Notes: generated from the letters alone by a model not told the origin. Shown: positions 386 through 15,530, counted from the stretch's first letter. The stretch is DNA of 26,533 bases from Chthoniobacterales bacterium (GCA_049278515.1 JBAPMH010000453.1:1-26533); one strand, 5' to 3'. Numbers and translations: made by a program.

Positions 386-667
386 GCGACGTCTCCCGCC
401 TGCTTACGGATTCGGCTTGTCGGGGAAAAAGTTAGCTGGAGTGGAACGGGCCGCAGGCGAGGGAGAGTGATGGGCCGTCGAGCCATGTTCCTCGGCCGGA
501 GCTTTGGTGTGCGATTCCATGGGCAATTCATCGACCCGATGGCGCTCGCAGGAGCAATAGAAGATTAACGACCCGGCCGCCGCCGTAAGACCGGCATTGC
601 GAAGAAATGATCGCATAAAGTCTGGCACACTAACCGCCGAGCGTCGGGGGGCGCAAGGAGGAAGATC

Positions 668-789
668 GTCATCCTGAGCGGAGCGAAGCGGAGTCGAAGG
701 ACCCCGTGGAAATTGAAAGCCGCAGCGCGGAATAGCGGATTACGCCGGCGCGCTCGTCCCCGGGGTCCCTCGACTTCGCTCGGGATGAC
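668..789. repeat. Palindromic intergenic repeat (REP/MITE-like), copy 1
   Basis: Left arm GTCATCCTGAGCGGAGCGAAGCGGAGTCGAAGGACCCC (668..705). Right arm GGGGTCCCTCGACTTCGCTCGGGATGAC (762..789), which is its reverse complement apart from a ~10-nt internal duplication in the left arm. The same termini occur at 6403..6490. Confidence 0.7.
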
Positions 790-844
790 TGAAACATTCG
801 CTTTGAAATTGAAAGGGCCAACCGGCGGACTACTGTGAGCCGCA

Positions 845-3292: not shown

Positions 3293-3314
3293 CCGGGCAA
3301 CGGACGAATTTTTC

Positions 3315-4085
3315 ATGGAAGGTCTTGGTAAAAAATTAAAAGAAGCGCGTTTAGCGCGAAACCTCACTCTCGAAGAAGCAGGCCGGCTGACCAAAATCAG
3401 GCCGGGCCGGCTCGAAGAAATCGAGAACGAGGATTTCTCGCAATTCGCCAGCCTGGCGTACGCCAAGGGGTTTCTGCTCATCTACGGGAAATTTCTCGAA
3501 GTAGATGTAAGCCCCTATCTGGAGGCGTTCGAAACATCGGAGCACGTCACCGTGGACGGGTATGCTTACCTTCAGGAGACGCCGGAGCCCATGCCCAGCC
3601 GCCCGGTGGTGGTCCGGCGGCCAAGAAGTAGCGGTGAGCGCACGTCGCTTTGGCCATTTGTTATCGGTGTCTTGGTACTGGTCATCGGATTTACGGTCAT
3701 GAAATCGCTCCTCCAGGTGCAGCGGCTCAAGCCGAGACCCTCTCCGACCCCCGGCTTTTCGCCGGCCGCAACCGAGACCGCCTCGGACAAGATTATTGCG
3801 CCTCACGCCCTGCCGGTGGAAAGCACGACCCCGGCGGCGACTGACGTGAGTTCCGCGGCGCCTACACCGCCGCCGACCGTCGCCCCTACGAGCACGCCGC
3901 ACGTGCCCTCGGCCCCGGCTGCTGAGCCTGAAGTGCGCCGGGCGGAACCGGTGCATCCGGATGAGGTGGCGAAACAGCCTCCGGTGACGCCCCGGCCTAC
4001 GGCGTCCCCAAGAAAGTCACCGCGCCGGGTCACACCGACGCCGGCTCCCCGGCCTACCGTGTTGACCACGCCTCGGGCGCGCTAG
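3315..4085 (+). CDS. XRE-type HTH membrane protein, RodZ-like (HTH + one TM + Pro-rich tail)
   Basis: An internal ATG at 3315 gives MEGLGKKLKEARLARNLTLEEAGRLTKIRPGRLEEIENEDF (HTH_25/RodZ-like N-terminus), a TM segment LWPFVIGVLVLVIGFTVM, then a Pro/Thr/Ala-rich tail. It starts 22 nt after the ftsK stop. The ORF-track start at 3204 overlaps ftsK and is unlikely. Confidence 0.7.
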   Translation: MEGLGKKLKEARLARNLTLEEAGRLTKIRPGRLEEIENEDFSQFASLAYAKGFLLIYGKFLEVDVSPYLEAFETSEHVTVDGYAYLQETPEPMPSRPVVVRRPRSSGERTSLWPFVIGVLVLVIGFTVMKSLLQVQRLKPRPSPTPGFSPAATETASDKIIAPHALPVESTTPAATDVSSAAPTPPPTVAPTSTPHVPSAPAAEPEVRRAEPVHPDEVAKQPPVTPRPTASPRKSPRRVTPTPAPRPTVLTTPRAR

Positions 4086-4105
4086 GAGCCCCAACTCTTG
4101 TTGAA

Positions 4106-5476
4106 ATGATCAGCGAAACGGTATCGCCCCCGAAGGTCGGCATGATCAGTCTGGGGTGCGCAAAAAACCTTGTCGATGCGGAGATCATGCTGGGGAGCGT
4201 GTTGGAGCAGGGCATGGAAATCACTTCGAGCGCCGAGGAGGCGGATGTGATCGTGGTGAACACCTGCGCATTTATCGATTCGGCGAAGGAAGAGTCGATC
4301 GAAGCAATTCTCGAGGCGCATCAACAGCGCGGGCTCGGGAAAAAGCCCGGCCAAAAATTGATCGTGAGCGGATGCATGTCGCAGCGTTTTTCGCGTGAGC
4401 TGCGCGAATCTCTCCCCGAGGTGGATGCTTTCGTCGGCCTGGACCAGGTGAGCGAGATGGGAGCGATCGTCCAGCGCGTCCTGAAGGTCGAGAACGATCG
4501 GGGTCATTCCTTTGTCACCGACCGGCCGACTTACATTCCGAATTACGATACGCCACGGTTCCGGCTCACCCCAACGCACAGCGCCTACCTGAAGATCGCG
4601 GAAGGATGCAATCACCCCTGCAGCTTTTGCGTAATCCCGCAGATGCGTGGACGGCACCGCAGCCGCCAGCCCGGTTCGATTCTCGCGGAGATTCGGGCGC
4701 TGATCACCGAAGGGGTGAAAGAGATCAACCTGATCAGCCAGGACACGACTTATTACGGAATGGATTTGTGGGCGGCGAAAGCCGGGCCCCGCCAGCCGGT
4801 CGATTCCTCGAGGGGACCGACTCTTGCCGCGCTGCTTCGAGAGATCCAAACCATCGAAGGCGATTTTTGGGTGCGGCTGCTCTACACGCACCCGGCCCAT
4901 TGGAGCAGGGAATTGATCGAGACGATCGCTCAATGCGACAAGGTTGCGCGCTACATCGACATGCCGCTCCAGCATATTGAGGAAGGCATGCTCGGGCGGA
5001 TGCGCCGCGAAACGAGCCGGGCTCATATCGAGGAGGTCATTGGGGATCTGCGCGCGGGAATTCCGGGGGTCGCGTTGCGGACGACCTTCATTGTTGGTTT
5101 TCCTGGCGAAACCGAGGCGGCATTCGAGTCGCTCCTGGAATTCATCGATCGCACCCGTTTTGAGCGGCTGGGGGTTTTCAAATATTCCCAGGAGGAGGGT
5201 TCCCGCGCCGCCAAGATGCCGGAGCAAATCCCTGCGAAGATCAAGAACGATCGTTATCGTCGTGCCATGAGCGTGCAACAGCGGATTGCTCGCGAGATGG
5301 CCGCCGAAAAGGTCGGGCGCGAGATGCGGTTGCTGGTCGATCAGCCGCTCGTCGCCCGCACGGAAATGGACGCGCCGGACGTGGATGCGCGGGTGATTCT
5401 TTCGCAGCCGGAGATCGTCGGTCAGTTTGTCGAACGACGGATAACGGGCAGTCGCGGCTACGATTTGCTGGCTTAG
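4106..5476 (+). CDS. rimO: Ribosomal protein S12 methylthiotransferase RimO (MiaB-family radical SAM)
   Basis: N-terminal VGMISLGCAKNLVDAEIMLG is typical of RimO UPF0004 domains. It has the radical-SAM motif CNHPCSFC (CxxxCxxC) and a C-terminal TRAM-like segment. The start could instead be the ATG at 4142. Confidence 0.85.
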   Translation: MISETVSPPKVGMISLGCAKNLVDAEIMLGSVLEQGMEITSSAEEADVIVVNTCAFIDSAKEESIEAILEAHQQRGLGKKPGQKLIVSGCMSQRFSRELRESLPEVDAFVGLDQVSEMGAIVQRVLKVENDRGHSFVTDRPTYIPNYDTPRFRLTPTHSAYLKIAEGCNHPCSFCVIPQMRGRHRSRQPGSILAEIRALITEGVKEINLISQDTTYYGMDLWAAKAGPRQPVDSSRGPTLAALLREIQTIEGDFWVRLLYTHPAHWSRELIETIAQCDKVARYIDMPLQHIEEGMLGRMRRETSRAHIEEVIGDLRAGIPGVALRTTFIVGFPGETEAAFESLLEFIDRTRFERLGVFKYSQEEGSRAAKMPEQIPAKIKNDRYRRAMSVQQRIAREMAAEKVGREMRLLVDQPLVARTEMDAPDVDARVILSQPEIVGQFVERRITGSRGYDLLA

Positions 5477-5483
5477 GCGGCGT

Positions 5484-5554
5484 TGTAGCCGGGATCGTTG
5501 ATTCCGGCCTGGATTGCGTAGCGTCTGCCACCGGGATCACCGATCCCGGCTACA
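5484..5554. repeat. 14-bp perfect inverted repeat TGTAGCCGGGATCG / CGATCCCGGCTACA with 43-nt spacer, just after the rimO stop
   Basis: Arms lie at 5484..5497 and 5541..5554. An extra CCGGGATC copy sits at 5531..5538. It may be a terminator or a REP-like structure; there is no T-tract. Confidence 0.4.
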
Positions 5555-5621
5555 GAGCCAAATTAACGAGTGACAACGCCCGGGGGATTATGCGATTTTT
5601 CGCGGACGTCTCGCTCCCCCC

Positions 5622-5867
5622 ATGAGTGAACCACACCAGGATACTGTTCGCATTCCACCCGCCCCCGCGCCGGACCATTTTGTGCCGGGCCCGAAAAAGG
5701 ACACGGCGCGCATCGCAATCCTGCCAAGGGCCACCCCGGCGCCCGTTGTCGCCGCCGCCAGACCGGTCGCCGCCCTCGATTCCATTCCCAAACCGTACTA
5801 CTGGGCAATCTTTGGTTTGGCCGCCCTAATTTTTATCATTCAAATTTGGAATTTCTTTGTATCGTAG
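5622..5867 (+). CDS. Small hypothetical membrane protein (Pro-rich N-terminus, C-terminal TM)
   Basis: 81 aa, ending in YYWAIFGLAALIFIIQIWNFFVS. Its stop is 3 nt before the trxA start, which suggests co-translation with trxA. No recognisable family and no clear SD. Confidence 0.45.
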   Translation: MSEPHQDTVRIPPAPAPDHFVPGPKKDTARIAILPRATPAPVVAAARPVAALDSIPKPYYWAIFGLAALIFIIQIWNFFVS

Positions 5868-5870
5868 GGG

Positions 5871-6200
5871 ATGGACAATTCCGCCGCTATTACACTGGAC
5901 GATTCTAATTTTGACAAGGAAGTGAATCAAAGCGCGCAACCGGTGCTGGTTGATTTTTGGGCCGAATGGTGCGGTCCCTGTAAAATGATCGCGCCGCTGA
6001 TTGACGAGATTGCCAAGGAAAAAGCCGGCTCGGTGAAGGTCGCGAAAGTAAATGTCGACGACAACCAGAGCCTCTCCATGAAGTATAACGTCCGCGCGAT
6101 TCCCGCGCTGCTTTTCTTCAAAGATGGCCAGTTGCGCGATCAGATCGTCGGGATGACGAGCAAGAAGGATTTGCTCGGCAGGCTCGAGGCGCTGGCGTGA
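5871..6200 (+). CDS. trxA: Thioredoxin
   Basis: 109 aa with the active site WAEWCGPCK and typical thioredoxin length and layout (VLVDFWAEWCGPCKMIAP...IPALLFFKDG). Confidence 0.95.
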   Translation: MDNSAAITLDDSNFDKEVNQSAQPVLVDFWAEWCGPCKMIAPLIDEIAKEKAGSVKVAKVNVDDNQSLSMKYNVRAIPALLFFKDGQLRDQIVGMTSKKDLLGRLEALA

Positions 6201-6206
6201 GGCCAC

Positions 6207-6277
6207 TTAACGAATTAGCGACTGAATGATTTAGCGAATTCAGGCAATCGCTAATTCGCTCAATCGCTAAGTCGTTA
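6207..6277. terminator. Long imperfect hairpin between convergent trxA and tRNA-Arg (probable bidirectional terminator)
   Basis: Outer stem TTAACGAATTAGCGA (6207..6221) pairs with TCGCTAAGTCGTTAA (6263..6277), 14/15 positions. Inner stem ATTTAGCGAATT pairs with AATTCGCT. It is built from reiterated TTAGCGA-like ~7-nt units. Confidence 0.5.
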
Positions 6278-6284
6278 AATGAAT

Positions 6285-6358
6285 TGCGCCCGGCGCGGCT
6301 CGAACGCGCAACCTACAGCTTCGGAGGCTGTCACTCTATCCAGTTGAGCTACGGGCGC
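6285..6358 (-). tRNA. tRNA-Arg (anticodon CCG)
   Basis: The reverse complement GCGCCCGTAGCTCAACTGGATAGAGTGACAGCCTCCGAAGCTGTAGGTTGCGCGTTCGAGCCGCGCCGGGCGCA folds as a 74-nt cloverleaf:
- acceptor GCGCCCG/CGGGCGC;
- D stem GCTC/GAGT;
- anticodon stem ACAGC/GCTGT with loop CT-CCG-AA;
- T stem GCGCG/CGCGC with loop TTCGAGC.
CCA is not encoded. Confidence 0.9.
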
Positions 6359-6402
6359 AGCTTTCGCGGATTATAGCGGGGCAACGGGGCGATCACAACC
6401 GT

Positions 6403-6490
6403 CTGTCATCCCGAGCGTAGTCGAGGGATCCCGCCGCGAAACCCCAAAGCCAGCAATTCGGGATCCCTCGACTGGCGCTCGGGATGACAG
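6403..6490. repeat. Palindromic intergenic repeat (REP/MITE-like), copy 2
   Basis: CTGTCATCCCGAGCGTAGTCGAGGGATCCC (6403..6432) and GGGATCCCTCGACTGGCGCTCGGGATGACAG (6460..6490) are inverted repeats around a 27-nt loop. The terminal GTCATCC[C/T]GAGCG motif matches copy 1. Confidence 0.7.
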
Positions 6491-6568
6491 AGGAAGAATG
6501 GCCATTTGCATTTTCGGCCTCCCCGCCTGAAAATGACCGCCCCCCAGCCGACCTGGAGAAAACCCATT

Positions 6569-6910
6569 ATGAGCAGCATTATCGACGCAATTGAGAAGGA
6601 ACAGTTCAAAACCGACGTCACAAAGTTCAAGGTCGGCGACGGTGTCCGTGTTCATACCCGGGTAGTGGAAGGCGACAAGGAACGGATCCAAATCTTCGCC
6701 GGGATCGTGATTGGCCGCAAAGGCCGGGGTCTGAATGAGACCTTCACGGTCCGGCGCATTTCCTACGGCGAAGGGGTCGAGCGCGTTTTTCCGATCCACT
6801 CGCCCCGGATTGCGAAGGTCGAAGTGGAGAAGGAAGGCCGAGCCCGCCGGGCGAAGCTGAACTATCTCCGCAACCGCAAGGGCAAGGAAGCGACCGCGGT
6901 GCGGGAATAG
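6569..6910 (+). CDS. rplS: 50S ribosomal protein L19
   Basis: From the internal ATG at 6569 (GGAG 10 nt upstream) it reads [86 protein letters not shown], a typical L19 sequence. The ORF-track start at 6506 lies inside the repeat element. Confidence 0.95.
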
Positions 6911-6915
6911 GGAAT

Positions 6916-6976
6916 GTGAATAGTGATCAGTGACTGGTGAATGGCATCTATTCACCGATCACCAGTCACCATTCAC
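6916..6976 (+). terminator. rplS terminator: 29-bp imperfect hairpin made of GTGANNN heptads
   Basis: GTGAATAGTGATCAGTGACTGGTGAATGG (6916..6944), loop CAT, then CTATTCACCGATCACCAGTCACCATTCAC (6948..6976). My hand pairing gives 22 Watson-Crick pairs, 3 G-T pairs and 4 mismatches. A T-rich tract ACTTTCGATTTT follows. Confidence 0.6.
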
Positions 6977-7022
6977 ACTTTCGATTTTCCAGTCGGCTTG
7001 GCATTAGCTACGATGTTGATCC

Positions 7023-7733
7023 ATGTACCGACGTTGTGGATTCCGGCATGAGCGAAAACTCCGCGCGCTTGGTATCACCACGATCGCCGGCATCGATGAA
7101 GCCGGCCGCGGCGCTCTCGCCGGTCCGGTCGTGGCGGCGGTTGTTATCCTCCCGGAAAAGTTCCGCCACCGGAAACTGAACGATTCGAAGCAGCTGTTGC
7201 CTGAGAAACGCCAGGAGATCTACCAGGACATCGTTGGGAACGATTCGATCCGCTGGGCGGTCGGAATCGTGGACTCAATCGAAATCGACACGATCAATAT
7301 CCTCCGGGCGACCCACAAGGCGATGCGCCTCGCGCTTTCCGGGCTCGCCCTTCAACCCGAGCACGTCCTCATCGATGGCCTGCCGGTGTTCCCTTTCCCG
7401 CTACCCCAAACTGCCATTATTGACGGCGATTGCTTCAGCCTCAGCATCGCCGCAGCGAGCGTGATCGCGAAGGTGACGCGCGATACGATTATGCGCGACT
7501 TTTGCGCTCGATATCCCGAGTATTGCTTCAGCCAGCACAAAGGCTACGGCACGGAACTACACCTGATTAAACTGCATGAACACGGGCCTTGTCCGATTCA
7601 TCGACGATCTTTCGAACCGGTGGCGCAGCCGGTTTTCGAGTTCGCCTCCCCGGCATCTGCGACTTGGCACGCGGGGGGAGAAACTGGCCGGCAAATTTCT
7701 CCGCCGGAACGGTTACAAAATTCTGTCTCGTAA
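7023..7733 (+). CDS. rnhB: Ribonuclease HII
   Basis: IAGIDEAGRGALAGPVVAAVVIL, NDSKQL and a C-terminal HRRSFEPV are RNase HII hallmarks. The ORF continues ~36 aa past the usual end and overlaps the next gene by 158 nt, so the 3' end is uncertain. Confidence 0.85.
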   Translation: MYRRCGFRHERKLRALGITTIAGIDEAGRGALAGPVVAAVVILPEKFRHRKLNDSKQLLPEKRQEIYQDIVGNDSIRWAVGIVDSIEIDTINILRATHKAMRLALSGLALQPEHVLIDGLPVFPFPLPQTAIIDGDCFSLSIAAASVIAKVTRDTIMRDFCARYPEYCFSQHKGYGTELHLIKLHEHGPCPIHRRSFEPVAQPVFEFASPASATWHAGGETGRQISPPERLQNSVS

Positions 7734-8028
7734 TTTTCGAGGTCGCACCGGTGGGGAGATCGACCTGGTCTGCCGCGATGGCGACACCCTGGTTTTCGTG
7801 GAGGTCAAAACGCGAACGCGGGAAGATTTTGGCCGGCCTCTCGATGCCGTGGATCGGGACAAGCGAAAACGAATTTCTCGCGGAGGCCTGGCCTGGCTGC
7901 GCCTGCTCGGCAATCCCGACATCCTCTTTCGGTTCGATGTCGTGGAAGTAATCATCGCGGAAGACGCCGAGCCGCGGCTGCAACTTCTGCGGAACGCTTT
8001 CTCCCTCCCCGAGCCTTACATTTACTAA
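7576..8028 (+). CDS. YraN-family (UPF0102) endonuclease-like protein
   Basis: LGTRGEKLAGKFLRRNGYKILSRNFRGRTGGEIDLVCRDGDTLVFVEVKTRT matches the YraN/UPF0102 core. The rnhB-yraN order is a commonly conserved pairing. The only canonical in-frame start is the ATG at 7576, which lies inside rnhB. Confidence 0.8.
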   Translation: MNTGLVRFIDDLSNRWRSRFSSSPPRHLRLGTRGEKLAGKFLRRNGYKILSRNFRGRTGGEIDLVCRDGDTLVFVEVKTRTREDFGRPLDAVDRDKRKRISRGGLAWLRLLGNPDILFRFDVVEVIIAEDAEPRLQLLRNAFSLPEPYIY

Positions 8029-8067
8029 ACGAAATGACGTGACCGGGCGTCGTGGCGACCGGGCCCG

Positions 8068-8099
8068 CTACTCGACGGTAACGCTTTTTGCGAGGTTGC
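8068..8099 (-). repeat. glmS 3'-end remnant, copy 1 (last 10 codons, NLAKSVTVE-stop)
   Basis: CTACTCGACGGTAACGCTTTTTGCGAGGTTGC versus the intact end CTACTCGACAGTGACGCTTTTGGCGAGGTTCC at 13523... The encoded peptide is identical with 3 synonymous differences. A few nt beyond the stop (GGGCCCG|CTA versus GCGGCCG|CTA) are also similar. Confidence 0.7.
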
Positions 8100-8262
8100 C
8101 GACCACGGTGGCGTACTTTTTTCACGATTCGCTTGTCAACTCTCAAAAAAAGTTGAACAAGGTGCTTTCTTTTCTGTAGGCGTCCGACCTACACTCGAAA
8201 AAGAAGCTGCGACAAAAGCAGCCTCTCTCAACTCGCCACCCCACCCCTCAAATCCCCAGCCT

Positions 8263-10011
8263 ATGAAAACCAGAGTCTTATCCCGGCTCGCTCGCGTCGC
8301 ATTTGTTCTCGCCTCGACCGCGCCTTTGCCTTTGTCAGCAGCACCCACTGCGACACCAAGTCCGGCTCCAACACCGATCTTCATTAAGCAGGGCGGAAAG
8401 TGGACACCTGACACCCGCAAGGACTTCTACAGCCGGGACCAAGGTTCGCAGATCATGCCGCTAAGATGGATGCAGGCGCTCAAACAGCCGGATGGTCAGC
8501 CCTTCCTGGCCGGCAGTCTTAGCCGATTTGGGTATCTACCGAACGAGGCGAGCGATCCCCCTGGGTTGCCGGTTGGTTTCACCGTCGCCAGCGGAAGCGG
8601 CGTCCGCCAAATCGGGCTGACCTGCTCCGCTTGCCATACACGCCAGATTGAGGTCGCCGGCAATTCCTATCGGATCGATGGCGGTCCGGCAATCGCCGAT
8701 GCCCAGAGCCTTTTCGCCGGCATCGACACCGCGGTGAACGCCGTCTTGAGCAGTGACACGGCATTCACGGATTTCGCTGTTGCGGTTCTCGGCCCGAACC
8801 CACCGCCGGATGAAAAGGCAAAGCTGCGCCAAGAAGTGGCCGCATGGCATTTGCGTTATCACACCCTGATGAAAGATGCATTGCCATCACCGTCTTGGGG
8901 CGTGGGACGGGTCGATGCCGTGGGGATGATTTTCAACCGGCTAACCGGCCTGGATATCGGCCCGCCGCCCACCTATCTTATCCCGGAGAATATCAAACCT
9001 GCGACCGCGCCGGCGCGCTACCCGTTTCTCTGGAATGCGCCGGTGCAGGACAAGACCCAGTGGCCGGGCTTCGCGGACAACGGCAGCAATATTCTGGGGC
9101 TCTCGCGTAATCTCGGCGAAGTCTATGGGGTGTTCGGCGCCTTTTTTCCCACAAAGTCCTGGTGGCGAGTGCTGGGAATCGATTACCTGGCCAATAATTC
9201 CGCTAACTTCGAGGGACTGAATGCCTTGGAGGAGCTGGTTCGCAAGATCGGGCCGCCGCAGTGGGCCTGGGAGGTAAATCAGCCGCTGGCCACCCAAGGC
9301 AAGGAAATTTTTGGGCGTACCACAGTGCAAGGCGGGTGCGTCAGTTGCCATGGGATAAAGCCTGGTGAAACGCGATTCCCCGACTGGAAAACATGGGCGA
9401 CACCGGTTTTGGACGTCGGGACCGACTCGAGGGAATACAGCATTCTTGGCTGGACCGTCAAAACCGGCGTCCTCGAAGGCGCGAAGATTCCCTTTCTGAA
9501 GGAGCGGCTGAAACCGGTCGATACCGCTTTTAATGTTCTGGGGACATCGGTTATTGGGTCCATTCTTCAGCATTATGTTCCGGTTCTGATGGACGAAAAA
9601 GCACAGCCGGAATCCAAGACCACACCACCGTCGCCGTTCACCCCGCAGACGGAGGACCTCAAGGGCGCGTTCAATCAACCAGTGCCGGGCGCTACTCCGT
9701 CCTTTGCCTACGAATCCAGAGTGCTCCAGGGAATTTGGGCCGCTGCACCGTATCTGCACAATGGATCGGTCCCGACTCTGGCCGAATTGCTGAAGCTGGC
9801 CGCCGAAAGGGTCGGTTCATTCAAGGTCGGCCCAGCCTACGACATAGTTAATGTCGGCCTGGCCGCCGAGCAGACCAAGTTCGATTATGTCATGCAGACG
9901 ACGGACTGTAGCGACCGAGATTCCGGAAACAGCCGTTGCGGCCATGAATACGGGACCAAGCTTTCGCCAGACGAGAAGAAGGCATTGCTCGAATACCTTA
10001 AGACGCTTTGA
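8263..10011 (+). CDS. Secreted di-heme cytochrome c peroxidase-like protein (RoxA/CCP-superfamily-like)
   Basis: 582 aa with an N-terminal signal-like peptide (VAFVLASTAPLPLSAAP) and two heme-binding motifs: CSACH (in GLTCSACHTRQ) and CVSCH (in GGCVSCHGIKPG). The PYLHNGSVPTLAELL motif resembles the PY(M/F)HDGS..TL motif of bacterial di-heme peroxidases. Confidence 0.75.
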   Translation: MKTRVLSRLARVAFVLASTAPLPLSAAPTATPSPAPTPIFIKQGGKWTPDTRKDFYSRDQGSQIMPLRWMQALKQPDGQPFLAGSLSRFGYLPNEASDPPGLPVGFTVASGSGVRQIGLTCSACHTRQIEVAGNSYRIDGGPAIADAQSLFAGIDTAVNAVLSSDTAFTDFAVAVLGPNPPPDEKAKLRQEVAAWHLRYHTLMKDALPSPSWGVGRVDAVGMIFNRLTGLDIGPPPTYLIPENIKPATAPARYPFLWNAPVQDKTQWPGFADNGSNILGLSRNLGEVYGVFGAFFPTKSWWRVLGIDYLANNSANFEGLNALEELVRKIGPPQWAWEVNQPLATQGKEIFGRTTVQGGCVSCHGIKPGETRFPDWKTWATPVLDVGTDSREYSILGWTVKTGVLEGAKIPFLKERLKPVDTAFNVLGTSVIGSILQHYVPVLMDEKAQPESKTTPPSPFTPQTEDLKGAFNQPVPGATPSFAYESRVLQGIWAAAPYLHNGSVPTLAELLKLAAERVGSFKVGPAYDIVNVGLAAEQTKFDYVMQTTDCSDRDSGNSRCGHEYGTKLSPDEKKALLEYLKTL

Positions 10012-10026
10012 TTGATCGTCGCCTGA

Positions 10027-10049
10027 CCCGCTTTCATTTACTAAGCGGG
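10027..10049 (+). terminator. Short hairpin after the peroxidase-like gene
   Basis: CCCGCTT (10027..10033) and AAGCGGG (10043..10049) around a 9-nt loop, 16 nt after the stop. GGGGTGTTTT lies further downstream. Confidence 0.35.
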
Positions 10050-10086
10050 GAAATGGCCGCTGGGGGTGTTTTGGCGCCGCGGACTG

Positions 10087-10653
<567 letters not shown>

Positions 10654-11039
10654 TCAAGTTTTGAACCGTTTCACGGATCGCGTCGTCTCGTTTCACGGGA
10701 TATTCGATTTTTCAATGAGGGTCATACCAAATCACGCCACTTCAATCAGGTTTGATTCGGTCCGCAGGGCATCGAGGATACAACCCACACCCGCCTTAGC
10801 GGGGCTCAGGCAATACGCCTTGCCGTAAGTCGAAGTCGCTGCCGCTCTGCAAGATTTCGCGAAATCCCAACTCACACGCTCGCTGCCAGATGCCGATTAC
10901 TTCGACGCATCGACAAAGATAGCAGACGATTTGTCTTGCCACAGTCCGCCGGTCGCTACCAAGATGTCATTTGAGTTTCATAAAGGATAGTTCATTACAA
11001 CGAGGCGAAGCATACCGGCAGCGGTTCACAATTGAAGTT

Positions 11040-11069
11040 TTGAAGAAAGGGACGAGAGTGTTGTGATAT
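11040..11069 (+). promoter_or_regulatory. Candidate sigma70-type promoter for the two-gene operon
   Basis: TTGAAG (11040..11045), an 18-nt spacer, then TGATAT (11064..11069), ~38 nt upstream of the ATG at 11108. This is a pattern match only. Confidence 0.25.
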
Positions 11070-11107
11070 GCTGACCTTCATTAAGCAGTGACAGGAGGAG
11101 GCAGGCG

Positions 11108-11443
11108 ATGGCGTCATTCAGGATTTTCGGGCCTTACGTTTTAGACCTCGGCACTCCAGGGCTTGCACCTGGTCGCCATCAGGACACTTTTTGGCTGGGG
11201 TGGGTTCCCCAACCTCAATTTGGCAAATTCACAGCTACCGTCACGAGCCACCCCGGGCCAGAGGTCCCAGGCTCAGAGGAAAAACTGGCACACAGGTTGT
11301 ACACTTCGACCGTCGTAGAATGGGTCCCAGTGGTTAGTCCGCCCCAAGTACGACTAGATCTCGTCATTCATGCACGGTTGTTCAACACGGGAACAATCCC
11401 GATCAGGACTGTTAATCTTTGTATCACCTTCATTGAGCTTTAA
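11108..11443 (+). CDS. Hypothetical protein (111 aa), first gene of a low-GC two-gene operon
   Basis: A strong SD AGGAGGAGG (11093..11101) lies 6 nt before the ATG. The region is visibly lower in GC than the backbone. I recognise no motif; the sequence looks beta-rich and Pro-rich. Confidence 0.6.
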   Translation: MASFRIFGPYVLDLGTPGLAPGRHQDTFWLGWVPQPQFGKFTATVTSHPGPEVPGSEEKLAHRLYTSTVVEWVPVVSPPQVRLDLVIHARLFNTGTIPIRTVNLCITFIEL

Positions 11444-11461
11444 CTTTTTAAGGAGGCGATT

Positions 11462-11704
11462 ATGCGCTTAACAGTAGTACACGACATTCAAGGCAATATA
11501 GCATCCATAGCTGCATCTCCAAAAGACTCACCGGTCATGTACGTCAAATTGGTGGCCGGGCAGCGCGTTGCTGAAATCGACGCACCGGAGCTGAAGCAAG
11601 ATTACGTCAGTGCGCATCTGAGTGAGTTAATCAAAGATCATCGGGTGGCGATCGAGCCGACTGGGGGCAAGCTTGTCAAGATAGGATCCGGGACAGCGAA
11701 ATAG
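11462..11704 (+). CDS. Hypothetical protein (80 aa), second gene of the operon
   Basis: SD AGGAGG (11451..11456) lies 5 nt before the ATG, and the start is 18 nt after the upstream stop. No recognisable motif. Confidence 0.6.
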   Translation: MRLTVVHDIQGNIASIAASPKDSPVMYVKLVAGQRVAEIDAPELKQDYVSAHLSELIKDHRVAIEPTGGKLVKIGSGTAK

Positions 11705-11889
11705 CCGTTCGCGTCGGAGACGCTCGCGCTGCACGATACTGAAATCTTGCTCGCTGAGCAGGAGGACGAGCATCGCGCACGATCTACGCACGCCACTCAA
11801 GACGGTTTCACTCCTTGTCGATCAACTGAAAGGCGAGTTTGAGGACAAAGGAGGCGCGGACTTAGCCGAAGTTTTCGAGATTGCCATAG

Positions 11890-12150
11890 GCGGTCATTCG
11901 CGCCGCTCGCAAGGCGCTGCGAAAGAGCTTTCCCACCGCCACGGAACTCGCTTGCGACAACTACAATTTCTTTGTGATTGGGTTCGGCCCAACAGAACGC
12001 CCTTCGGACTGTATCGTTTCCATCGCCGCCGTAGCAAATGGGGTCGCTTGGGGTTGCCCTGATTTGACGGACAGTGGGCAAGGGGTCAATCGTGCTTTCG
12101 CGGTACTACACGCGTTTTACGTCAGCATTGCGCCTGATGTTTCGCGATAG
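11890..12150 (+). pseudogene. DUF1801-like gene remnant (no start codon; probably frameshifted)
   Basis: The frame is open from the stop at 11887..11889 to TAG at 12148..12150, with no ATG. It reads AVIRAARKALRKSFPTATELACDNYNFFVIGFGPTERPSDCIVSIAAVANGV... This resembles, from memory, DUF1801/YdhG-like proteins (xxYDNYNxxxIGFxxxExxSDxIxSIA). The upstream part (~11810..11889) reads on in a different frame. The family assignment is tentative. Confidence 0.35.
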
Positions 12151-12166
12151 CGTAATTTGCAAATGT

Positions 12167-12200
12167 GAGATCCCTCGCCGTCGCGCAGCTCGGGATGACA
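12167..12200. repeat. Solo right-arm copy of the GTCATCCCGAGCG palindromic repeat family
   Basis: GAGATCCCTCGCCGTCGCGCAGCTCGGGATGACA resembles the right arms at 762..789 and 6460..6490. No matching left arm is nearby. It lies 24 nt from the stop of glmS remnant copy 3. Confidence 0.5.
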
Positions 12201-12223
12201 CGCAGTTTGGATGCCGCGGTAGC

Positions 12224-12485
12224 TCACTCGACGGTGACGCTTTTGGCAAGATTGCGCGGTTTATCGACGTCCCGGCCCAATTCGACGGCCATATGGTAGG
12301 CCAGAAGCTGGAGCGGGATTACGGTCAGGATCGGGCTCACGTAATCCGGAACGGGGGGGACTGAGATGATGTCGTCGGCGATTTTGGCCAGATGTTCTGA
12401 GCCTTTACCCGAGGTCACGGCAATCACAGGGCCCGGACTTGCTCGATGCTATGCAGGTTTTTAGAGAAGATGGCGTCATCCGATT
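12224..12485 (-). pseudogene. glmS 3'-end remnant, copy 3 (~260 nt, frame broken)
   Basis: The listed 67-aa ORF (GTG start) reads [66 protein letters not shown]. Nucleotide similarity to glmS continues upstream to about 12485, after a ~10-nt deletion near 12431 that shifts the frame. The stop is TGA here and TAG in the intact gene. Confidence 0.9.
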
Positions 12486-12503
12486 CCACGAGGGCCGGTT
12501 GGC

Positions 12504-13490
12504 TCAAGGACCGTTCTTGACCGCCTTGTTTGGTTCGCCTTTTCGTCGCGCTTTCATAATAGGCTCCGGTTTCGCCCATTCGCAGAACTCTGCAGCTGAG
12601 CTTTTCATCACGATAGCTGTAACGCCAGCAGCGAGCAGCGGAATTCCTATTTGGTAGTTACTAAATGCTTGTGAAATAGCCGTGGCGAAATAGGTCAGGC
12701 TGTATATTTCGGGAACCTTAGTCGCCCACATCTGGTAGATCGGACTCTTGGTGTCGCAGACAGTACGCCAACCAATTCTTTTCAGCAGGGCACCGACACG
12801 TCTGCCGAGTCCAAATGGGGATGTCGCTTGGTTCGGCGCAGGTAGGAATAGCCGGTCGCCGGATGAAAGCTGGAGTAATCCGTTGTTGCGAACGTCGTCC
12901 AAAAGATACACTGACTTCGCTGGCACTGCGCTCGCCAAATACTCATAGAGTTCCTCTTCGCTTTTGTTCTTCAATAGGAGAATCGCCGCGTTGTGAATCT
13001 CTTCGGGAATTAGAGGGCCCTCATTAGCCCCGATTAATTCCGTCAAAATAGCTTCCTCCTCAAAACGCTCGAAAATTCGTCTCTGCAGCAAGCGGCGCGT
13101 TTTGCTAGAGGAGATTTTGTTTAGATTCTTCAAAACCGATCGAAAATGGGCCTTCGCATCTGAGGTCTTTCTCTGACGGAGCAGTGCCACGGACAGGAGA
13201 AAGGTTGCTTCAATGCGGAGACGACCTCCGACGGGTGACTTCTCGCGAATGCTTACAAAGCCAGACTCGGCTACGGATACGTGATTGCTATCCAGCAGGC
13301 TTTCAAAATACCAGAGACGAGCCTCTAACATTCGGGGATGTTTCACACCGTAATCTGCTAGCAGTGCGTGAATCTCCTTTAGGGTCGCTTCGGCCTGAAC
13401 AATGTCGTGTCGAGTGCAAGCGTCTTTCAGCGTTCGCTCGAGCGGACGAAGTGATGCTAAATGACTTCTGCTTATGGGCTTTACTGCCAT
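12504..13490 (-). CDS. Orphan hypothetical protein (328 aa), immediately downstream of and co-oriented with glmS
   Basis: A long ORF in a lower-GC block. The ATG is 32 nt after the glmS stop, with no obvious terminator, promoter or SD between them. The N-terminal two thirds look alpha-helical. There is a hydrophobic stretch (IGIPLLAAGVTAIVM) near a basic C-terminus. I recognise no catalytic or family motif. Confidence 0.7.
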   Translation of the reverse strand: MAVKPISRSHLASLRPLERTLKDACTRHDIVQAEATLKEIHALLADYGVKHPRMLEARLWYFESLLDSNHVSVAESGFVSIREKSPVGGRLRIEATFLLSVALLRQRKTSDAKAHFRSVLKNLNKISSSKTRRLLQRRIFERFEEEAILTELIGANEGPLIPEEIHNAAILLLKNKSEEELYEYLASAVPAKSVYLLDDVRNNGLLQLSSGDRLFLPAPNQATSPFGLGRRVGALLKRIGWRTVCDTKSPIYQMWATKVPEIYSLTYFATAISQAFSNYQIGIPLLAAGVTAIVMKSSAAEFCEWAKPEPIMKARRKGEPNKAVKNGP

Positions 13491-13522
13491 TACGCCAAGA
13501 TCAAGGGTATGCGTCGCGGCCG

Positions 13523-15424
13523 CTACTCGACAGTGACGCTTTTGGCGAGGTTCCGCGGTTTGTCGACGTCCCGGCCCAATTCGACGGCCATGTGGTAGGC
13601 CAGAAGCTGGAGCGGGACTACGGTCAGGATCGGGCTGACGTAATCAGGAACGGCGGGGACTGAAATGATGTCGTCGGCGATTTTGGCCAGATGTTCCGAG
13701 CCTTTGCCCGAGGTCACGGCAATGACGGGGCCTTTCCGGGCCCGGACTTGCTCGATGTTGTTCAGATTCTTGGAAAAGACGGCGTCGTCCGGGGCGATAA
13801 ATACCGAAGGCAAGTCCGGCCGGACAAGGGCAATAATGCCGTGCTTGAGCTCGGCACTCGGATGGCCTTCGGCAAAGAGATAGGTGATCTCTTTCAATTT
13901 GAGGGCGGCTTCCACGGCGATCGGGAAGTTGAATTGCCGGCCGAAAAAGAGCATGCCGCTCACCGAGGCGTATTTTTTGGCGATGGCTTTGACTTGATCG
14001 CTCAGCTTGAGGACTTCCTCGATCTGCTCGGGCAACGCTTCCAAGGCGTCGATGATCCTGGTCCCTTCGGAAGTGGAGAGGTGACGCATGCGGCCGAGGA
14101 GCAATCCAACCGCGGCAAGAATGGTCACCTGAGAGGTGAAGGATTTGGTGGCGGCCACGCCGATTTCCGGCCCGGCATGCATGTAAACGCCGCCGTCACT
14201 TTCGCGTCCGACGGTGCTGGCGACGTTGTTGCAAATGCCGAGCGTGCGGTAGCCTTTGCGCTGGCTTTCGCGTAACGCGCCCAGGGTGTCCGCCGTCTCG
14301 CCGCTTTGGCTGATCGCGAAGACCAGCGTATCGCGGGTCATGGGAGTGTTGCGGTGGCGAAATTCGCTGGCGTGTTCTACTTCGGTCGGAATCTGCGCGA
14401 GCGCCTCGATCAGGTATTCCCCAATCATCGCCGCATGCAGGGCGGTCCCGCAGCCGGTCAAAACTACCCGGCCCACGTCGCGTAACTGGGCCGGCGTCAT
14501 GTTCAGGCCCCCGAGCTTGGCGGTGCATTCTTCGTGGCTAAGCCGGCCTCGCATCGCATCGCGGACGGACCCGGGCTGCTCAAAAATCTCCTTGAGCATG
14601 TAATGCGGGTAATCGCCCTTGTTGACGTCTGCGTCCGTGAATTCGACTTTGCTGAGCTGGTAATTGCCCCCCTCGCCGGCGACTGAGCTGATCTCGAATT
14701 TGTCGCGCTCAACCGCCACCACGTCGAAATCGTTCAAATACACCGCGTCCCGGGTGTAAGCGACAATGGCGCTGACGTCGCTCGCGAGGAAATTCTCCTC
14801 TTTGCCAACCCCGAGCACGAGCGGGCTGCCGCGGCGCGCGCCGACAATGAAATCGGGAATATCGCGATGGACGAGCGCAATTCCATAGGTGCCGATGACC
14901 TGGCGCAAGGCGGCGCGGACGGCATCAACGAGGCGTCCCTTCTTATTTGCTAAAACCGCGGCCGACCTGCCGTTCGAGCCCGGCGTAGAATCGGCTGTGA
15001 CCGACGCGTCGTAAAGTTTGCCGATCAGGTGGGCAAGGACTTCGGTATCGGTGTCCGAAGCAAAATTGTGGTCGCCGTCCCGAAGAAGCTGATCTTTTAA
15101 CGCCTGATAATTCTCGATAACGCCGTTGTGGACGAGCGCCAGTTTTCCGCTGGCATCGAAATGAGGATGGGCATTCTGATCGGTGGGCTTGCCATGGGTG
15201 GCCCAGCGGGTGTGGCTGATGCCGTAAGTCCCGGTGGGGGGATTGTCCGCCATGAGTTTCCCGAGGGCAGCGATCCGCCCGGCGCATTTGCGCGTCTCCA
15301 GGCGATCGCCATCCACGATCGCTACTCCCGCGGAATCGTAGCCGCGGTACTCAAGGCGGCGCAGCCCATCGAGCAGAATGGGCGCTGCTTCCGACCGTCC
15401 GACGTAGCCGACGATGCCACACAT
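13523..15424 (-). CDS. glmS: Glutamine--fructose-6-phosphate aminotransferase (isomerizing)
   Basis: From the internal ATG at 15424 it reads MCGIVGYVG (Ntn-Cys amidotransferase start), then two SIS domains and the canonical C-terminus [13 protein letters not shown]. The ORF-track start at 15517 adds 31 non-homologous residues. Confidence 0.95.
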   Translation of the reverse strand: MCGIVGYVGRSEAAPILLDGLRRLEYRGYDSAGVAIVDGDRLETRKCAGRIAALGKLMADNPPTGTYGISHTRWATHGKPTDQNAHPHFDASGKLALVHNGVIENYQALKDQLLRDGDHNFASDTDTEVLAHLIGKLYDASVTADSTPGSNGRSAAVLANKKGRLVDAVRAALRQVIGTYGIALVHRDIPDFIVGARRGSPLVLGVGKEENFLASDVSAIVAYTRDAVYLNDFDVVAVERDKFEISSVAGEGGNYQLSKVEFTDADVNKGDYPHYMLKEIFEQPGSVRDAMRGRLSHEECTAKLGGLNMTPAQLRDVGRVVLTGCGTALHAAMIGEYLIEALAQIPTEVEHASEFRHRNTPMTRDTLVFAISQSGETADTLGALRESQRKGYRTLGICNNVASTVGRESDGGVYMHAGPEIGVAATKSFTSQVTILAAVGLLLGRMRHLSTSEGTRIIDALEALPEQIEEVLKLSDQVKAIAKKYASVSGMLFFGRQFNFPIAVEAALKLKEITYLFAEGHPSAELKHGIIALVRPDLPSVFIAPDDAVFSKNLNNIEQVRARKGPVIAVTSGKGSEHLAKIADDIISVPAVPDYVSPILTVVPLQLLAYHMAVELGRDVDKPRNLAKSVTVE

Positions 15425-15460
15425 GACAGAGCGTGACACTAAGCCGTGACGGGCGCAACC

Positions 15461-15530
15461 GATGTAGAGGCGCTCGCCGCGGCGAGCGCCTGTTGTTCGG
15501 TAAGGCGCCTGGCACACGCGCCTCTACATC
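15461..15530. promoter_or_regulatory. Nested palindromes in the glmS/glgC divergent intergenic region (possible glmS leader structure)
   Basis: A 13-bp perfect inverted repeat, GATGTAGAGGCGC (15461..15473) and GCGCCTCTACATC (15518..15530), encloses a perfect 22-nt palindrome GGCGCTCGCCGCGGCGAGCGCC (15469..15490). The palindrome overlaps the left arm by 5 nt, so the two pairings are mutually exclusive. Confidence 0.3.

What the first reader, a model, noticed from the sequence alone, without database searches (positions are those of the whole stretch)
8051..13790. Serially filled insertion hotspot at the glmS 3' end: three cassette-sized blocks, each capped by a glmS-end remnant, with no recombinase in sight
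**What the sequence shows.** The terminal coding sequence of glmS (minus strand, ...NLAKSVTVE-stop, stop at 13523..13525) recurs three more times in the same orientation:
- 12224..~12485 (~260 nt);
- 10087..~10283 (~197 nt);
- 8068..8099 (last 10 codons only).

Roughly 10-17 nt beyond each stop are also similar (G[C/T]CGCGG plus 3-4 nt before the stop triplet). Between successive copies lie three mutually unrelated blocks of about 1.0, 1.9 and 2.0 kb. They look lower in GC than the flanks, and each holds essentially one transcription unit.

**What established knowledge says.** Direct repeats of a gene's 3' end that bracket foreign DNA are the classic footprint of site-specific integration by elements carrying a replacement gene end, as with tRNA/tmRNA-targeting islands. 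The glmS terminus is also the well-known attTn7 target.

**What is unusual.**
- I can find no integrase, DDE transposase, TnsA-E or Cas-sized ORF in the 5.4 kb or next to it.
- The units are integron-cassette-sized.
- Remnant length decreases with distance from glmS (260 > 197 > 32 nt).

**Inference.** These are either recombinase-less cassettes mobilised in trans to the glmS end, or heavily decayed tandem islands. The ancestral state would be yraN converging directly on glmS.
Basis: partly seen in the sequence, partly recalled or inferred. Interest (0 to 1): 0.85.

Follow-up and report, generated by a model that had tools for sequence, protein, structure and literature searches.

The report
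Stacked leftover glmS gene ends
Next to the essential gene glmS of a soil Verrucomicrobium lie three leftover copies of that gene's tail, each marking a past import of DNA from a related bacterium; this most likely came from ordinary one-sided recombination rather than a new kind of mobile cassette.

Summary
The glmS 3' end (minus strand, stop at 13523-13525) recurs collinearly at 12224-12485, 10087-10283 and 8068-8099, and about 19 nt after each stop are also similar. No recombinase is present in the window or, as a pseudogene, in block B.

The interpretation needs revising.
- The copies differ almost only at synonymous sites (78 synonymous against 12 non-synonymous codons, pooled with four related loci). 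Each copy was therefore once a working glmS end in a separate lineage.
- Remnant lengths vary from 27 to 336 nt across five lineages.
- One junction cuts a LuxR gene in mid-domain.
- Block B is a patchwork that includes pseudogene fragments.
- Block C, the cytochrome gene, is the neighbour of yraN in a syntenic relative and has host-like GC. It is doubtful as a foreign cassette.

Best explanation (confidence about 0.55): repeated one-sided recombination. The conserved glmS acts as a homologous anchor for DNA from relatives, and the far end of that DNA joins illegitimately inside or just after the resident glmS tail. The old tail is pushed outward. The same mechanism has been proposed for T6SS, Rhs and CDI orphan arrays.

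Decayed integrase islands and cassettes mobilised in trans are less likely. Interest is moderate to low.

The parts
13523..15424 (-). glmS, the working gene. Its last ~270 nt (13523-13791) plus ~19 nt after the stop (13504-13522) form the repeated unit.
   Evidence: Pfam SIS and GATase domains. The catalytic N-terminus MCGIVGY sets the start at 15424. glgC-glmS synteny holds in nearly all of the 160 relatives.
12486..13503 (-). Block A, probably the youngest insert. It holds one gene, orf328 (12504..13490), co-oriented with glmS, starting 33 nt after the glmS stop and ending 18 nt before remnant 1. GC is 51.7%.
   Evidence: No Pfam, NCBIfam, PADLOC or PHROG hit. Only 13 homologues in 5.8 billion proteins, none next to glmS where DNA was available. 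Junctions reproduced in the Logan contig L001.
12224..12485 (-). Remnant 1: a displaced glmS 3' end, 5'-truncated, with a 10-nt deletion that shifts the frame.
   Evidence: 93% identity to the current end. Over the 69 in-frame codons: 14 synonymous and 2 non-synonymous codon differences (P=5e-7 under neutrality).
10284..12223 (.). Block B, a patchwork. It holds orf111 (11108..11443 +), orf80 (11462..11704 +), a histidine-kinase H-box fragment (~11769-11885 +) and a LuxR-type gene cut after GerE position 38 of 57 (10284..10437 -) and fused in frame to remnant 2. GC is 55.1%.
   Evidence: Pfam on the ORFs and on the six-frame translation. An intact LuxR homologue lies ~2.0-2.3 kb downstream of glmS, in the same orientation, in the closest relative L002, with 74% nt identity to 10286-10526.
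10087..10283 (-). Remnant 2: a displaced glmS 3' end of 197 nt.
   Evidence: Last 36 codons against remnant 1: 11 synonymous, 0 non-synonymous. Against the current end: 8 and 1. The 5' part carries two compensating frameshifts.
10031..10086 (.). Stub of the yraN 3' end (~14-17 nt) plus a copy of the yraN-glmS spacer. This is the right-hand copy of an ~85-nt repeat (10031-10118 against 8015-8099).
   Evidence: Alignment at 76-80% identity. Homology to the cytochrome gene's own 3' flank (L169) ends at 10036, inside a CTT(T/A)CA microhomology.
8100..10030 (+). Block C: a di-haem cytochrome c peroxidase gene (8263..10011) with ~100 nt of its own upstream region. GC is 57.9%, like the host.
   Evidence: NCBIfam CytoC_perox, E=8e-133. 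L168 is collinear with window 381-10011, with this gene directly after yraN and no glmS there. L169 carries the gene in a defence island.
8068..8099 (-). Remnant 3: the last 10 codons plus stop of a glmS. The 39-nt spacer to the yraN stop follows at 8029-8067.
   Evidence: 29/32 identical to remnant 2, and all three differences are synonymous. It is absent from the yraN-cytochrome spacer of L168.
7576..8028 (+). yraN (UPF0102), the conserved left border. It converges on the array.
   Evidence: Pfam PF02021. Synteny with L168.

Best explanation
The array is the footprint of repeated one-sided recombination, also called homology-facilitated illegitimate recombination or 'sequential displacement'.

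**Proposed mechanism.**
1. glmS is the last strongly conserved gene before a hypervariable stretch of chromosome in this Chthoniobacterales clade.
2. DNA from a related strain or species, carrying glmS and whatever follows it there, pairs with the resident glmS through homology.
3. The far, non-homologous end of that DNA joins illegitimately a short way off, inside the last 27-336 nt of the resident glmS or just after it.
4. The cell ends up with a working glmS whose tail comes from the donor, followed by the donor's downstream DNA, followed by the 5'-truncated resident tail, now a dead remnant.
5. Each repeat of the process pushes older blocks and remnants outward. The newest block lies next to glmS.

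No dedicated recombinase is needed. Host RecA and end-joining at microhomology suffice.

**Shown.** The remnants exist. They were once working alleles. The junction position is variable. One junction cuts a cargo gene. Recombinase genes are absent. Empty and filled sites exist in relatives.

**Inferred.** The order of events, the linear-DNA route, and how block C arose. Block C is either an old insertion between convergent yraN and glmS that came with an 85-nt duplication, or the product of two one-sided events.
For: 1. **Synonymous bias.** Current-end and remnant pairs differ overwhelmingly at synonymous sites.
   - Window: 14:2, 11:0 and 3:0.
   - L087 34:6, L112 7:1, L011 6:3, L095 3:0.
   - Pooled 78:12, against a neutral expectation of 26% synonymous; P=4e-33.
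   - So both members of each pair were functional glmS tails in different lineages. In-situ duplication followed by decay is excluded.
2. **Junction position is not fixed.** Remnants measure 336, 262, 197, 94, about 50, 32 and 27 nt in five lineages. In L002 a 26-nt repeat starts at +18.
3. **Junction B|remnant 2 cuts a LuxR gene at GerE position 38 of 57.** The intact homologue lies about 2 kb downstream of glmS in the closest relative L002. Block B therefore looks like a donor's ordinary glmS-downstream DNA, broken at a random point.
4. **Microhomology.** The junction of the cytochrome 3' flank with the yraN-end stub lies in the microhomology CTT(T/A)CA. The existence of a yraN stub shows that the process is not specific to glmS sequence.
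5. **Shared flank tracks relatedness.** The window copies are 7-12% diverged and share about 19 nt after the stop. The more diverged pairs in L087, L095 and L112 share nothing clear after the stop, and L011 at most a weak ~20-nt resemblance. Post-stop flanks are species-specific.
6. **No recombinase.** None in the window or in the six frames of block B. None among the 25 commonest Pfam families of 136 and of 26 non-conserved ORFs downstream of glmS in about 160 relatives.
7. **Empty site recovered.** DNA after the L011 remnant matches DNA directly after the glmS stop in L005 and L012.
8. **Precedent.** The same mechanism and the same 'newest proximal, old 3' ends pushed back' pattern were proposed for T6SS effector-immunity arrays and for Rhs/CDI orphans (PMC5361080, read).
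Against: - No donor genome was found in which glmS is directly followed by orf328 or by the block B genes. The five orf328 homologue contexts that could be read are away from glmS.
- The key prediction could not be tested. The donor tract in glmS should extend upstream of each remnant's 5' edge, but the nearest relatives are only about 85% identical.
- Three cargo ORFs end within 0-18 nt of the following remnant (block A, L095, L011). This tidy packing looks cassette-like.
- Cargo in blocks A and B both starts about 19-20 nt after the stop. A recurrent break point at that position would fit a site-specific cut.
- Among 3465 ORF ends, truncated remnants are almost only glmS. A generic process has to explain that by glmS being the border of the variable region.
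- Block C is bracketed by an 85-nt repeat holding both gene ends. A single one-sided event does not produce that simply.
Confidence: 0.55

Rival explanations
1. Tandem, decayed integrase islands. Elements with a tyrosine or serine integrase targeted the glmS 3' end and carried a replacement tail, as e14/phage 21 do at icd, or as ICE/CIME accretion does at fda or tRNA genes. The integrases and most cargo were later deleted.
For: - Direct repeats of a gene's 3' end bracket the foreign DNA.
- The replacement tails are functional alleles with synonymous differences. My recollection, not checked in the paper library, is that element-borne icd ends show the same bias.
- Empty sites exist in relatives.
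- Blocks A and B have low GC.
- The junction that cuts LuxR could be a later deletion.
Against: - Seven blocks in five lineages (0.24-2.0 kb) contain no integrase or fragment of one.
- No recombinase family recurs downstream of glmS in about 160 relatives.
- The repeat's 5' edge, where such elements cross over, sits at seven different positions between -336 and -27. That would need as many integrase specificities.
- A library search found no integrase reported to target the glmS end, only Tn7.
Confidence: 0.15
2. Recombinase-less cassettes that use the glmS tail as an attachment site and are moved in trans by an enzyme encoded elsewhere.
For: - The units are small.
- In block A and in L095, a single co-oriented ORF starts 25-33 nt after the glmS stop and ends 3-18 nt before the remnant.
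- Cargo of A and B starts at about +19/20. Short GC palindromes lie at +4..+12.
- Remnants are nearly confined to glmS.
- All remnants share the last 27 nt of glmS, which could hold a core site.
Against: - The outer edge of the repeat is not fixed.
- Long remnants are real former glmS coding sequence with synonymous-only divergence along their whole length. That is not expected of an element's attachment arm.
- One junction truncates a gene. One insert is 240 nt without an ORF. Block B holds pseudogene debris.
- No hairpin or attC-like fold on either strand (z-scores 0.07 to 1.9).
- Cargo homologues are not linked to glmS elsewhere.
- No IntI, Tns or Xer-type gene is in the window.
Confidence: 0.1
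3. Campbell-type insertion of small circles by host RecA. Once a block is flanked by two glmS tails, recombination between the tails excises a circle (1299, 2137 or about 2019 nt). That circle can re-insert by a single crossover at the glmS of another cell. This would make the blocks mobile without a site-specific enzyme.
For: - It produces exactly the structure tail-cargo-truncated tail.
- It explains the 85-nt two-gene-end repeat around block C better than a single one-sided event does.
- The flanking repeats of A (262 nt, 93% identical) are long enough for RecA.
- L001 begins and ends in the same 28-mer. That is equally expected from a linear tandem arrangement.
Against: - The 27-50-nt repeats, and the 85-nt repeat at ~80% identity, are too short or too diverged for efficient RecA crossover.
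- The truncated LuxR junction and the first formation of each unit still need an illegitimate event.
- There is no evidence for circles or for the same unit in two genomes.
Confidence: 0.1
4. Assembly artefact: strain variants of the glmS region strung together in a metagenome-assembled contig.
For: The window comes from a MAG contig (named as such). Repeats of 85-93% identity are hard for short-read assemblers.
Against: - A chimeric path would need shared k-mers between the end of each block and an internal glmS position. None exist.
- The remnants carry a frameshift deletion and truncations.
- A second assembler (Logan) gives identical junctions for A and C.
- Analogous structures occur in independent MAGs and metagenomes (L011/L089, L087, L095, L112).
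Confidence: 0.03

Closest known systems
Orphan arrays at T6SS effector-immunity, Rhs and CDI loci ('sequential displacement', with homology-facilitated illegitimate recombination proposed; Kirchberger et al. 2017, PMC5361080)
   Same: - A conserved upstream sequence acts as the anchor.
- An incoming module brings a new 3' end.
- The old 3' end is pushed distally and kept as a 5'-truncated orphan.
- Repeated events build an array with the newest module proximal.
- No recombinase is involved.
   Different: - Here the anchor is a housekeeping enzyme gene, not a polymorphic toxin.
- The displaced tails have no evident function and no immunity partner.
- The cargo is unrelated hypothetical genes and pseudogene debris.
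Additive flexible genomic islands marked by recurring repeats of a tRNA gene's last 20 bp (for example fGI-2 of Ca. Methylopumilus, PMC10872708), and tycheposon arrays
   Same: - A hotspot beside a conserved gene.
- Serial additions, each marked by a repeat of the gene's 3' end.
- Very variable content, mostly proteins of unknown function.
- Inserts from a few hundred bp upward.
   Different: - Those repeats have a fixed length and sequence, which implies site-specific integration.
- Here the repeat length runs from 27 to 336 nt, the target is a protein-coding gene, and no integrase is seen.
e14 / phage 21 integration into icd, and ICE/CIME accretion at the fda 3' end (from my own knowledge, not checked in the paper library)
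   Same: The element supplies a replacement 3' end that differs mainly at synonymous sites. The native tail survives as a pseudogene fragment at the far end. Tandem accretion can leave integrase-less units.
   Different: Those systems have an integrase and a fixed crossover point. Neither was found here.
Tn7 at attTn7
   Same: The target is the glmS terminus. The cargo of blocks A and B starts about 19-20 nt after the stop, close to the Tn7 insertion point (about 23-25 bp).
   Different: No Tns genes, no terminal inverted repeats and no 5-bp duplication. Tn7 does not duplicate glmS coding sequence.

Membership tests
Sequential displacement / homology-facilitated illegitimate recombination array | A conserved anchor gene borders a region whose content differs between relatives | tested here: met
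   glgC-glmS is conserved in nearly all of the 160 loci. Downstream content is unique in the closest relatives.
Sequential displacement / homology-facilitated illegitimate recombination array | Displaced former 3' ends, 5'-truncated, lie distal to each new block, and each was once a functional allele | tested here: met
   Three remnants in the window and four in relatives. Pooled synonymous to non-synonymous ratio 78:12, P=4e-33.
Sequential displacement / homology-facilitated illegitimate recombination array | The illegitimate junction varies in position and runs through unrelated sequence, with microhomology | tested here: met
   Junctions at -336, -262, -197, -94, about -50, -32 and -27. LuxR is cut in mid-domain. 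CTT(T/A)CA microhomology at the yraN-stub junction. Microhomology could be judged at only two junctions.
Sequential displacement / homology-facilitated illegitimate recombination array | The donor tract in the anchor gene extends upstream of the junction, with a variable end point | not testable with these tools
   The nearest relatives are only ~85% identical in glmS. Strain-level genomes are needed.
Integrase-mediated island at a gene's 3' end (including CIME-type decayed units) | A tyrosine or serine recombinase gene, or its remnant, in or beside the element | tested here: not met
   Pfam on all window ORFs and on six frames of block B. Inserts of L011, L002, L004, L007 and L003 also checked. 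Not among the 25 commonest families in 162 downstream ORFs of relatives.
Integrase-mediated island at a gene's 3' end (including CIME-type decayed units) | Flanking direct repeats of constant extent, set by a fixed crossover site | tested here: not met
   Repeat lengths of 27-336 nt.
Tn7-like transposon at attTn7 | TnsA/B/C with TnsD/E, terminal inverted repeats with TnsB sites, and a 5-bp duplication ~23 bp after the glmS stop | tested here: not met
   No Tns domains. No inverted repeats bracket any block. The duplications include glmS coding sequence.
Integron cassette array | IntI with attI and Pc next to the array; each cassette ends in a folded attC site | tested here: not met
   No integrase. 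The repeat does not fold better than shuffled sequence on either strand. Block B is not a single-ORF unit.
IMEX (XerCD-dependent elements at dif) | dif-like 28-bp sites flank each unit at the replication terminus | not tested
   No dif motif search was run. Cumulative GC skew rises across most of the window without a clear lasting reversal, so a terminus is unlikely here.
Additive flexible genomic island | Same chromosomal site in relatives, variable additive content, and recurring repeats of the bordering gene's end | tested here: met
   The descriptive category fits. It does not specify a mechanism.

The most novel reading that the evidence does not exclude
The last ~27 nt of glmS plus ~20 nt after the stop is an attachment site for a so far unknown, trans-acting, site-specific system in Chthoniobacterales. 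This system would load small, mostly single-gene units behind glmS so that they are read through from the glmS promoter. It would amount to an integron-like gene-capture platform built on a housekeeping gene and without a linked integrase.
Probability: 0.08. Interest if true: 0.8.

Novelty: new member of a known kind. Interest (0 to 1): 0.35.

Why it matters
If the reading is right, this is a clean natural footprint of one-sided (anchor plus illegitimate) recombination at a housekeeping gene in an uncultivated soil phylum. It shows how conserved genes seed additive gene-gain hotspots without any mobile-element machinery.

It also gives a simple diagnostic. Synonymous-only divergence between a gene's tail and its nearby remnant separates imported alleles from local duplication.

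It is a caution for annotation as well. Gene-end repeats around foreign DNA do not by themselves show integrase activity.

Tried and rejected
- **Exact-protein look-ups** of glmS, yraN and the 582-aa cytochrome found nothing, because gene callers chose other starts. The closest orf328 homologue, P0002 (86% identical), had no DNA available.
- **In-situ duplication with neutral decay** is rejected by the synonymous bias.
- **A Tn7-like origin** is rejected: no Tns genes, no terminal inverted repeats.
- **Integron or HUH-type hairpin sites** are rejected by folding.
- **Phage or satellite origin of the cargo.** No hits in IMG/VR for orf328 or orf111. No meaningful PHROG hit and no PADLOC hit for the window genes.
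- **Rfam** found only tRNA-Arg. The promoter and terminator scan gave nothing above shuffle expectation, except a terminator-like hairpin at 8095-8112.
- **Which allele is native.** I compared the L011 remnant and its current end with sister species. The result is uninformative because the remnant has decayed.
- **Mosaic-tract test in glmS** of L087 and the window failed for lack of close relatives.
- **Flanking repeats around the cytochrome gene** in L168 and L169: none convincing.
- **The 153-nt repeat after glmS in L078, L097 and L098** looks like a dispersed intergenic repeat, not a remnant.


Full report
**1. What is there.**

The window is nearly a whole 26.5-kb contig of a Chthoniobacterales (Verrucomicrobiota) soil MAG.

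glmS lies on the minus strand at 13523..15424. The ORF runs on to 15517, but the catalytic N-terminus MCGIVGY fixes the start.

The repeat search and alignment confirm three further copies of its 3' end, all in the same orientation:
- 12224..12485: 93% over 208 nt, then a 10-nt deletion, then 83% over 54 nt.
- 10087..10283: 166/195 identical, 91/100 over the last 100 nt.
- 8068..8099: 27/30 identical.

About 19 nt after each stop are also similar.

Contigs assembled independently from run SRR28011686 (L001, L167) are identical to the window across the junctions of blocks A and C. An assembly artefact is therefore unlikely.

**2. Content of the blocks.**

- **Block A (12486-13503).** It holds one gene, orf328, co-oriented with glmS and starting 33 nt after the glmS stop. 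It matches no family in Pfam, NCBIfam, PADLOC or PHROGs. It has only 13 homologues in 5.8 billion proteins. The five homologue contexts that could be read are not next to glmS.
- **Block B (10284-12223).** It is a patchwork: two small ORFs, a histidine-kinase H-box fragment (~11769-11885, + strand), and a LuxR-type gene that stops at GerE position 38 of 57, exactly where remnant 2 begins. The closest relative, L002, has the intact LuxR homologue about 2.0-2.3 kb downstream of its glmS in the same orientation.
- **Block C (8100-10030).** It is a di-haem cytochrome c peroxidase gene.

GC content is 51.7% for A, 55.1% for B and 57.9% for C, against 58-60% for the flanks.

No integrase, transposase, Tns or Cas domain occurs in any window ORF or in the six frames of block B.

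**3. The copies were once working gene ends.**

- Current end against remnant 1: 14 synonymous and 2 non-synonymous codons of 69.
- Remnant 1 against remnant 2 (last 36 codons): 11 and 0.
- Remnant 2 against remnant 3: 3 and 0.

Only 26% of random single-base changes in this sequence would be synonymous.

The copies are therefore not a local duplication that drifted. Each evolved under selection as part of a functional glmS in a separate lineage, and they were brought together by gene transfer.

They are closer to each other (roughly 85-93% over the shared stretches) than the long copies are to any of about 160 other glmS ends (about 84% or less over their full length). The donors were therefore close relatives.

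**4. Relatives.**

In 80 species-representative genomes and 80 metagenome contigs:
- glgC-glmS is conserved.
- Most genomes have a pilB-like ATPase gene after glmS.
- The closest relatives each have different, mostly unannotatable genes there.

Remnants of the glmS end occur in four more lineages:

| Locus | Insert | Remnant | Synonymous : non-synonymous |
|---|---|---|---|
| L087 | 0.96 kb | 336 nt, frame intact | 34 : 6 |
| L011 (= L089) | 1.6 kb | 94 nt | 6 : 3 |
| L112 | 0.24 kb, no ORF | about 50 nt | 7 : 1 |
| L095 | 1.03 kb, one ORF starting at +25 | 27 nt | 3 : 0 |

L005 and L012 show the empty site for L011. The DNA after the L011 remnant matches the DNA directly after their glmS stop.

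L002 has a 1.19-kb block bracketed by a 26-nt repeat that starts 18 nt after the stop.

Pooled over all pairs, synonymous to non-synonymous is 78:12 (P=4e-33).

In a scan of 3465 ORF ends in 2.17 Mb of these loci, truncated same-strand remnants were almost only glmS.

No recombinase family was among the 25 commonest Pfam families in the non-conserved ORFs downstream of glmS.

**5. Block C is different.**

A JGI contig (L168) is collinear with window 381-10011: FtsK, MiaB-like, thioredoxin, rplS, rnhB, yraN, then the cytochrome gene. Identity is 76-85% nt, and there is no glmS there. The cytochrome gene is thus the neighbour of yraN in a relative, and it has host-like GC.

Compared with L168, the window has about 120 extra nt between yraN and the cytochrome gene. 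These hold the spacer and the 32-nt glmS stub.

Beyond the cytochrome gene's own 3' flank, which is shared with L169 up to 10036, lies a 14-17-nt stub of the yraN end plus a second copy of the spacer. The join is at the microhomology CTT(T/A)CA.

So block C is bracketed by an ~85-nt repeat (76-80% identical) that contains both convergent gene ends. Two readings fit:
- An old insertion between adjacent yraN and glmS, with divergence similar to that between the window and L168.
- Two one-sided events, one from each side.

I could not decide between these. The yraN stub shows that gene-end remnants here are not confined to glmS sequence.

**6. Mechanism.**

The features fit repeated one-sided recombination. 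These features are:
- imported functional tails;
- outer junctions at many positions (-336 to -27, and +18);
- a junction that truncates a cargo gene;
- cargo that looks like ordinary flanking DNA of relatives, including pseudogene debris;
- shared post-stop flank only when the donor was close;
- no recombinase in seven blocks.

In this model, homologous pairing in the conserved glmS is combined with an illegitimate join of the other end inside or just after the resident tail. That join duplicates the stretch between the join and the stop. This is the mechanism proposed for T6SS effector-immunity arrays and for Rhs/CDI orphan strings (PMC5361080). Descriptively, the locus is an additive flexible genomic island (PMC10872708).

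Four points count against it or remain open:
- No donor arrangement was found.
- The test of where the imported tract starts could not be run.
- Some cargo ORFs are packed tightly between stop and remnant.
- The cargo of both A and B starts about 19-20 nt after the stop.

**7. Rivals.**

- **Decayed integrase islands (0.15).** They explain replacement tails and empty sites. They do not explain seven junction positions or the total lack of integrase traces. The paper library holds no report of an integrase that targets the glmS end.
- **Cassettes mobilised in trans (0.10).** This reading is weakened by the variable junctions, the truncated LuxR, the ORF-less insert, the absence of any hairpin in the repeat and cargo homologues unlinked to glmS.
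- **RecA-driven circles (0.10).** They would fit block C, but they still need a first illegitimate event.
- **Assembly artefact (0.03).** It is contradicted by the second assembly and by the parallel cases in other samples.

**8. Verdict.**

The most likely reading places it in a known class of recombination footprints rather than a new mobile system.

Interest is 0.35. The novel reading (a glmS-based capture platform with a trans-acting enzyme) keeps a probability of about 0.08.

Noticed in passing
window 10087-10437 (-): A 116-codon ORF fuses the N-terminal two-thirds of a LuxR-type HTH in frame to the last ~60 codons of a GlmS tail. It is probably an accidental chimera at a recombination junction.
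   Followed up: partly
window ~11769-11885 (+): A histidine-kinase H-box fragment (SIAHDLRTPL; Pfam HisKA, E=0.005) with no ATPase domain after it. It looks like a pseudogene fragment inside block B.
   Followed up: no
L002 10921-10946 and 12109-12134: A 26-nt direct repeat (96% identical) that starts 18 nt after the glmS stop. It brackets a 1.19-kb block with two small reverse-strand ORFs, a remnant-style insertion that does not include coding sequence.
   Followed up: partly
L078 about 10910-11062 and 12854-13005; also L097, L098: A ~150-nt GC-rich element with internal hairpins occurs just after glmS and again ~1.95 kb downstream, in several species. It looks like a dispersed intergenic repeat.
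   Followed up: no
L169 1-17557: A 79%-identical copy of the cytochrome c peroxidase gene sits inside a defence-type island with TIR, DUF4238, NERD, a CBASS pair (CD-NTase and Cap15) and an AAA_13 ATPase. The gene is itself found in variable regions.
   Followed up: no
window 8095-8122 (+): A terminator-like hairpin with a T-run starts at the edge of the 32-nt glmS stub, in the direction of yraN. The stub boundary may have been shaped by the need to keep it.
   Followed up: no
window 13504-13522, 12205-12223, 10068-10086, 8049-8067: Each copy has a 6-8-nt GC-only palindrome (GCGGCCGC, CCGCGG, CCGCGG, GGGCCC) 4-12 nt after the stop. Its function is unknown. It could be a remnant of a shared terminator or a break-prone site.
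   Followed up: no
window 15425-15517 (-): The glmS ORF has a 31-codon in-frame upstream extension from a GTG. Gene callers may annotate an over-long GlmS.
   Followed up: no
L082 and L084 (homologue contexts of orf328): Homologues of orf328 lie next to DUF2971 and DUF5677 genes and next to an HTH_17 (excisionase-like) gene. This hints that the family belongs to the accessory, possibly defence-related, gene pool.
   Followed up: no
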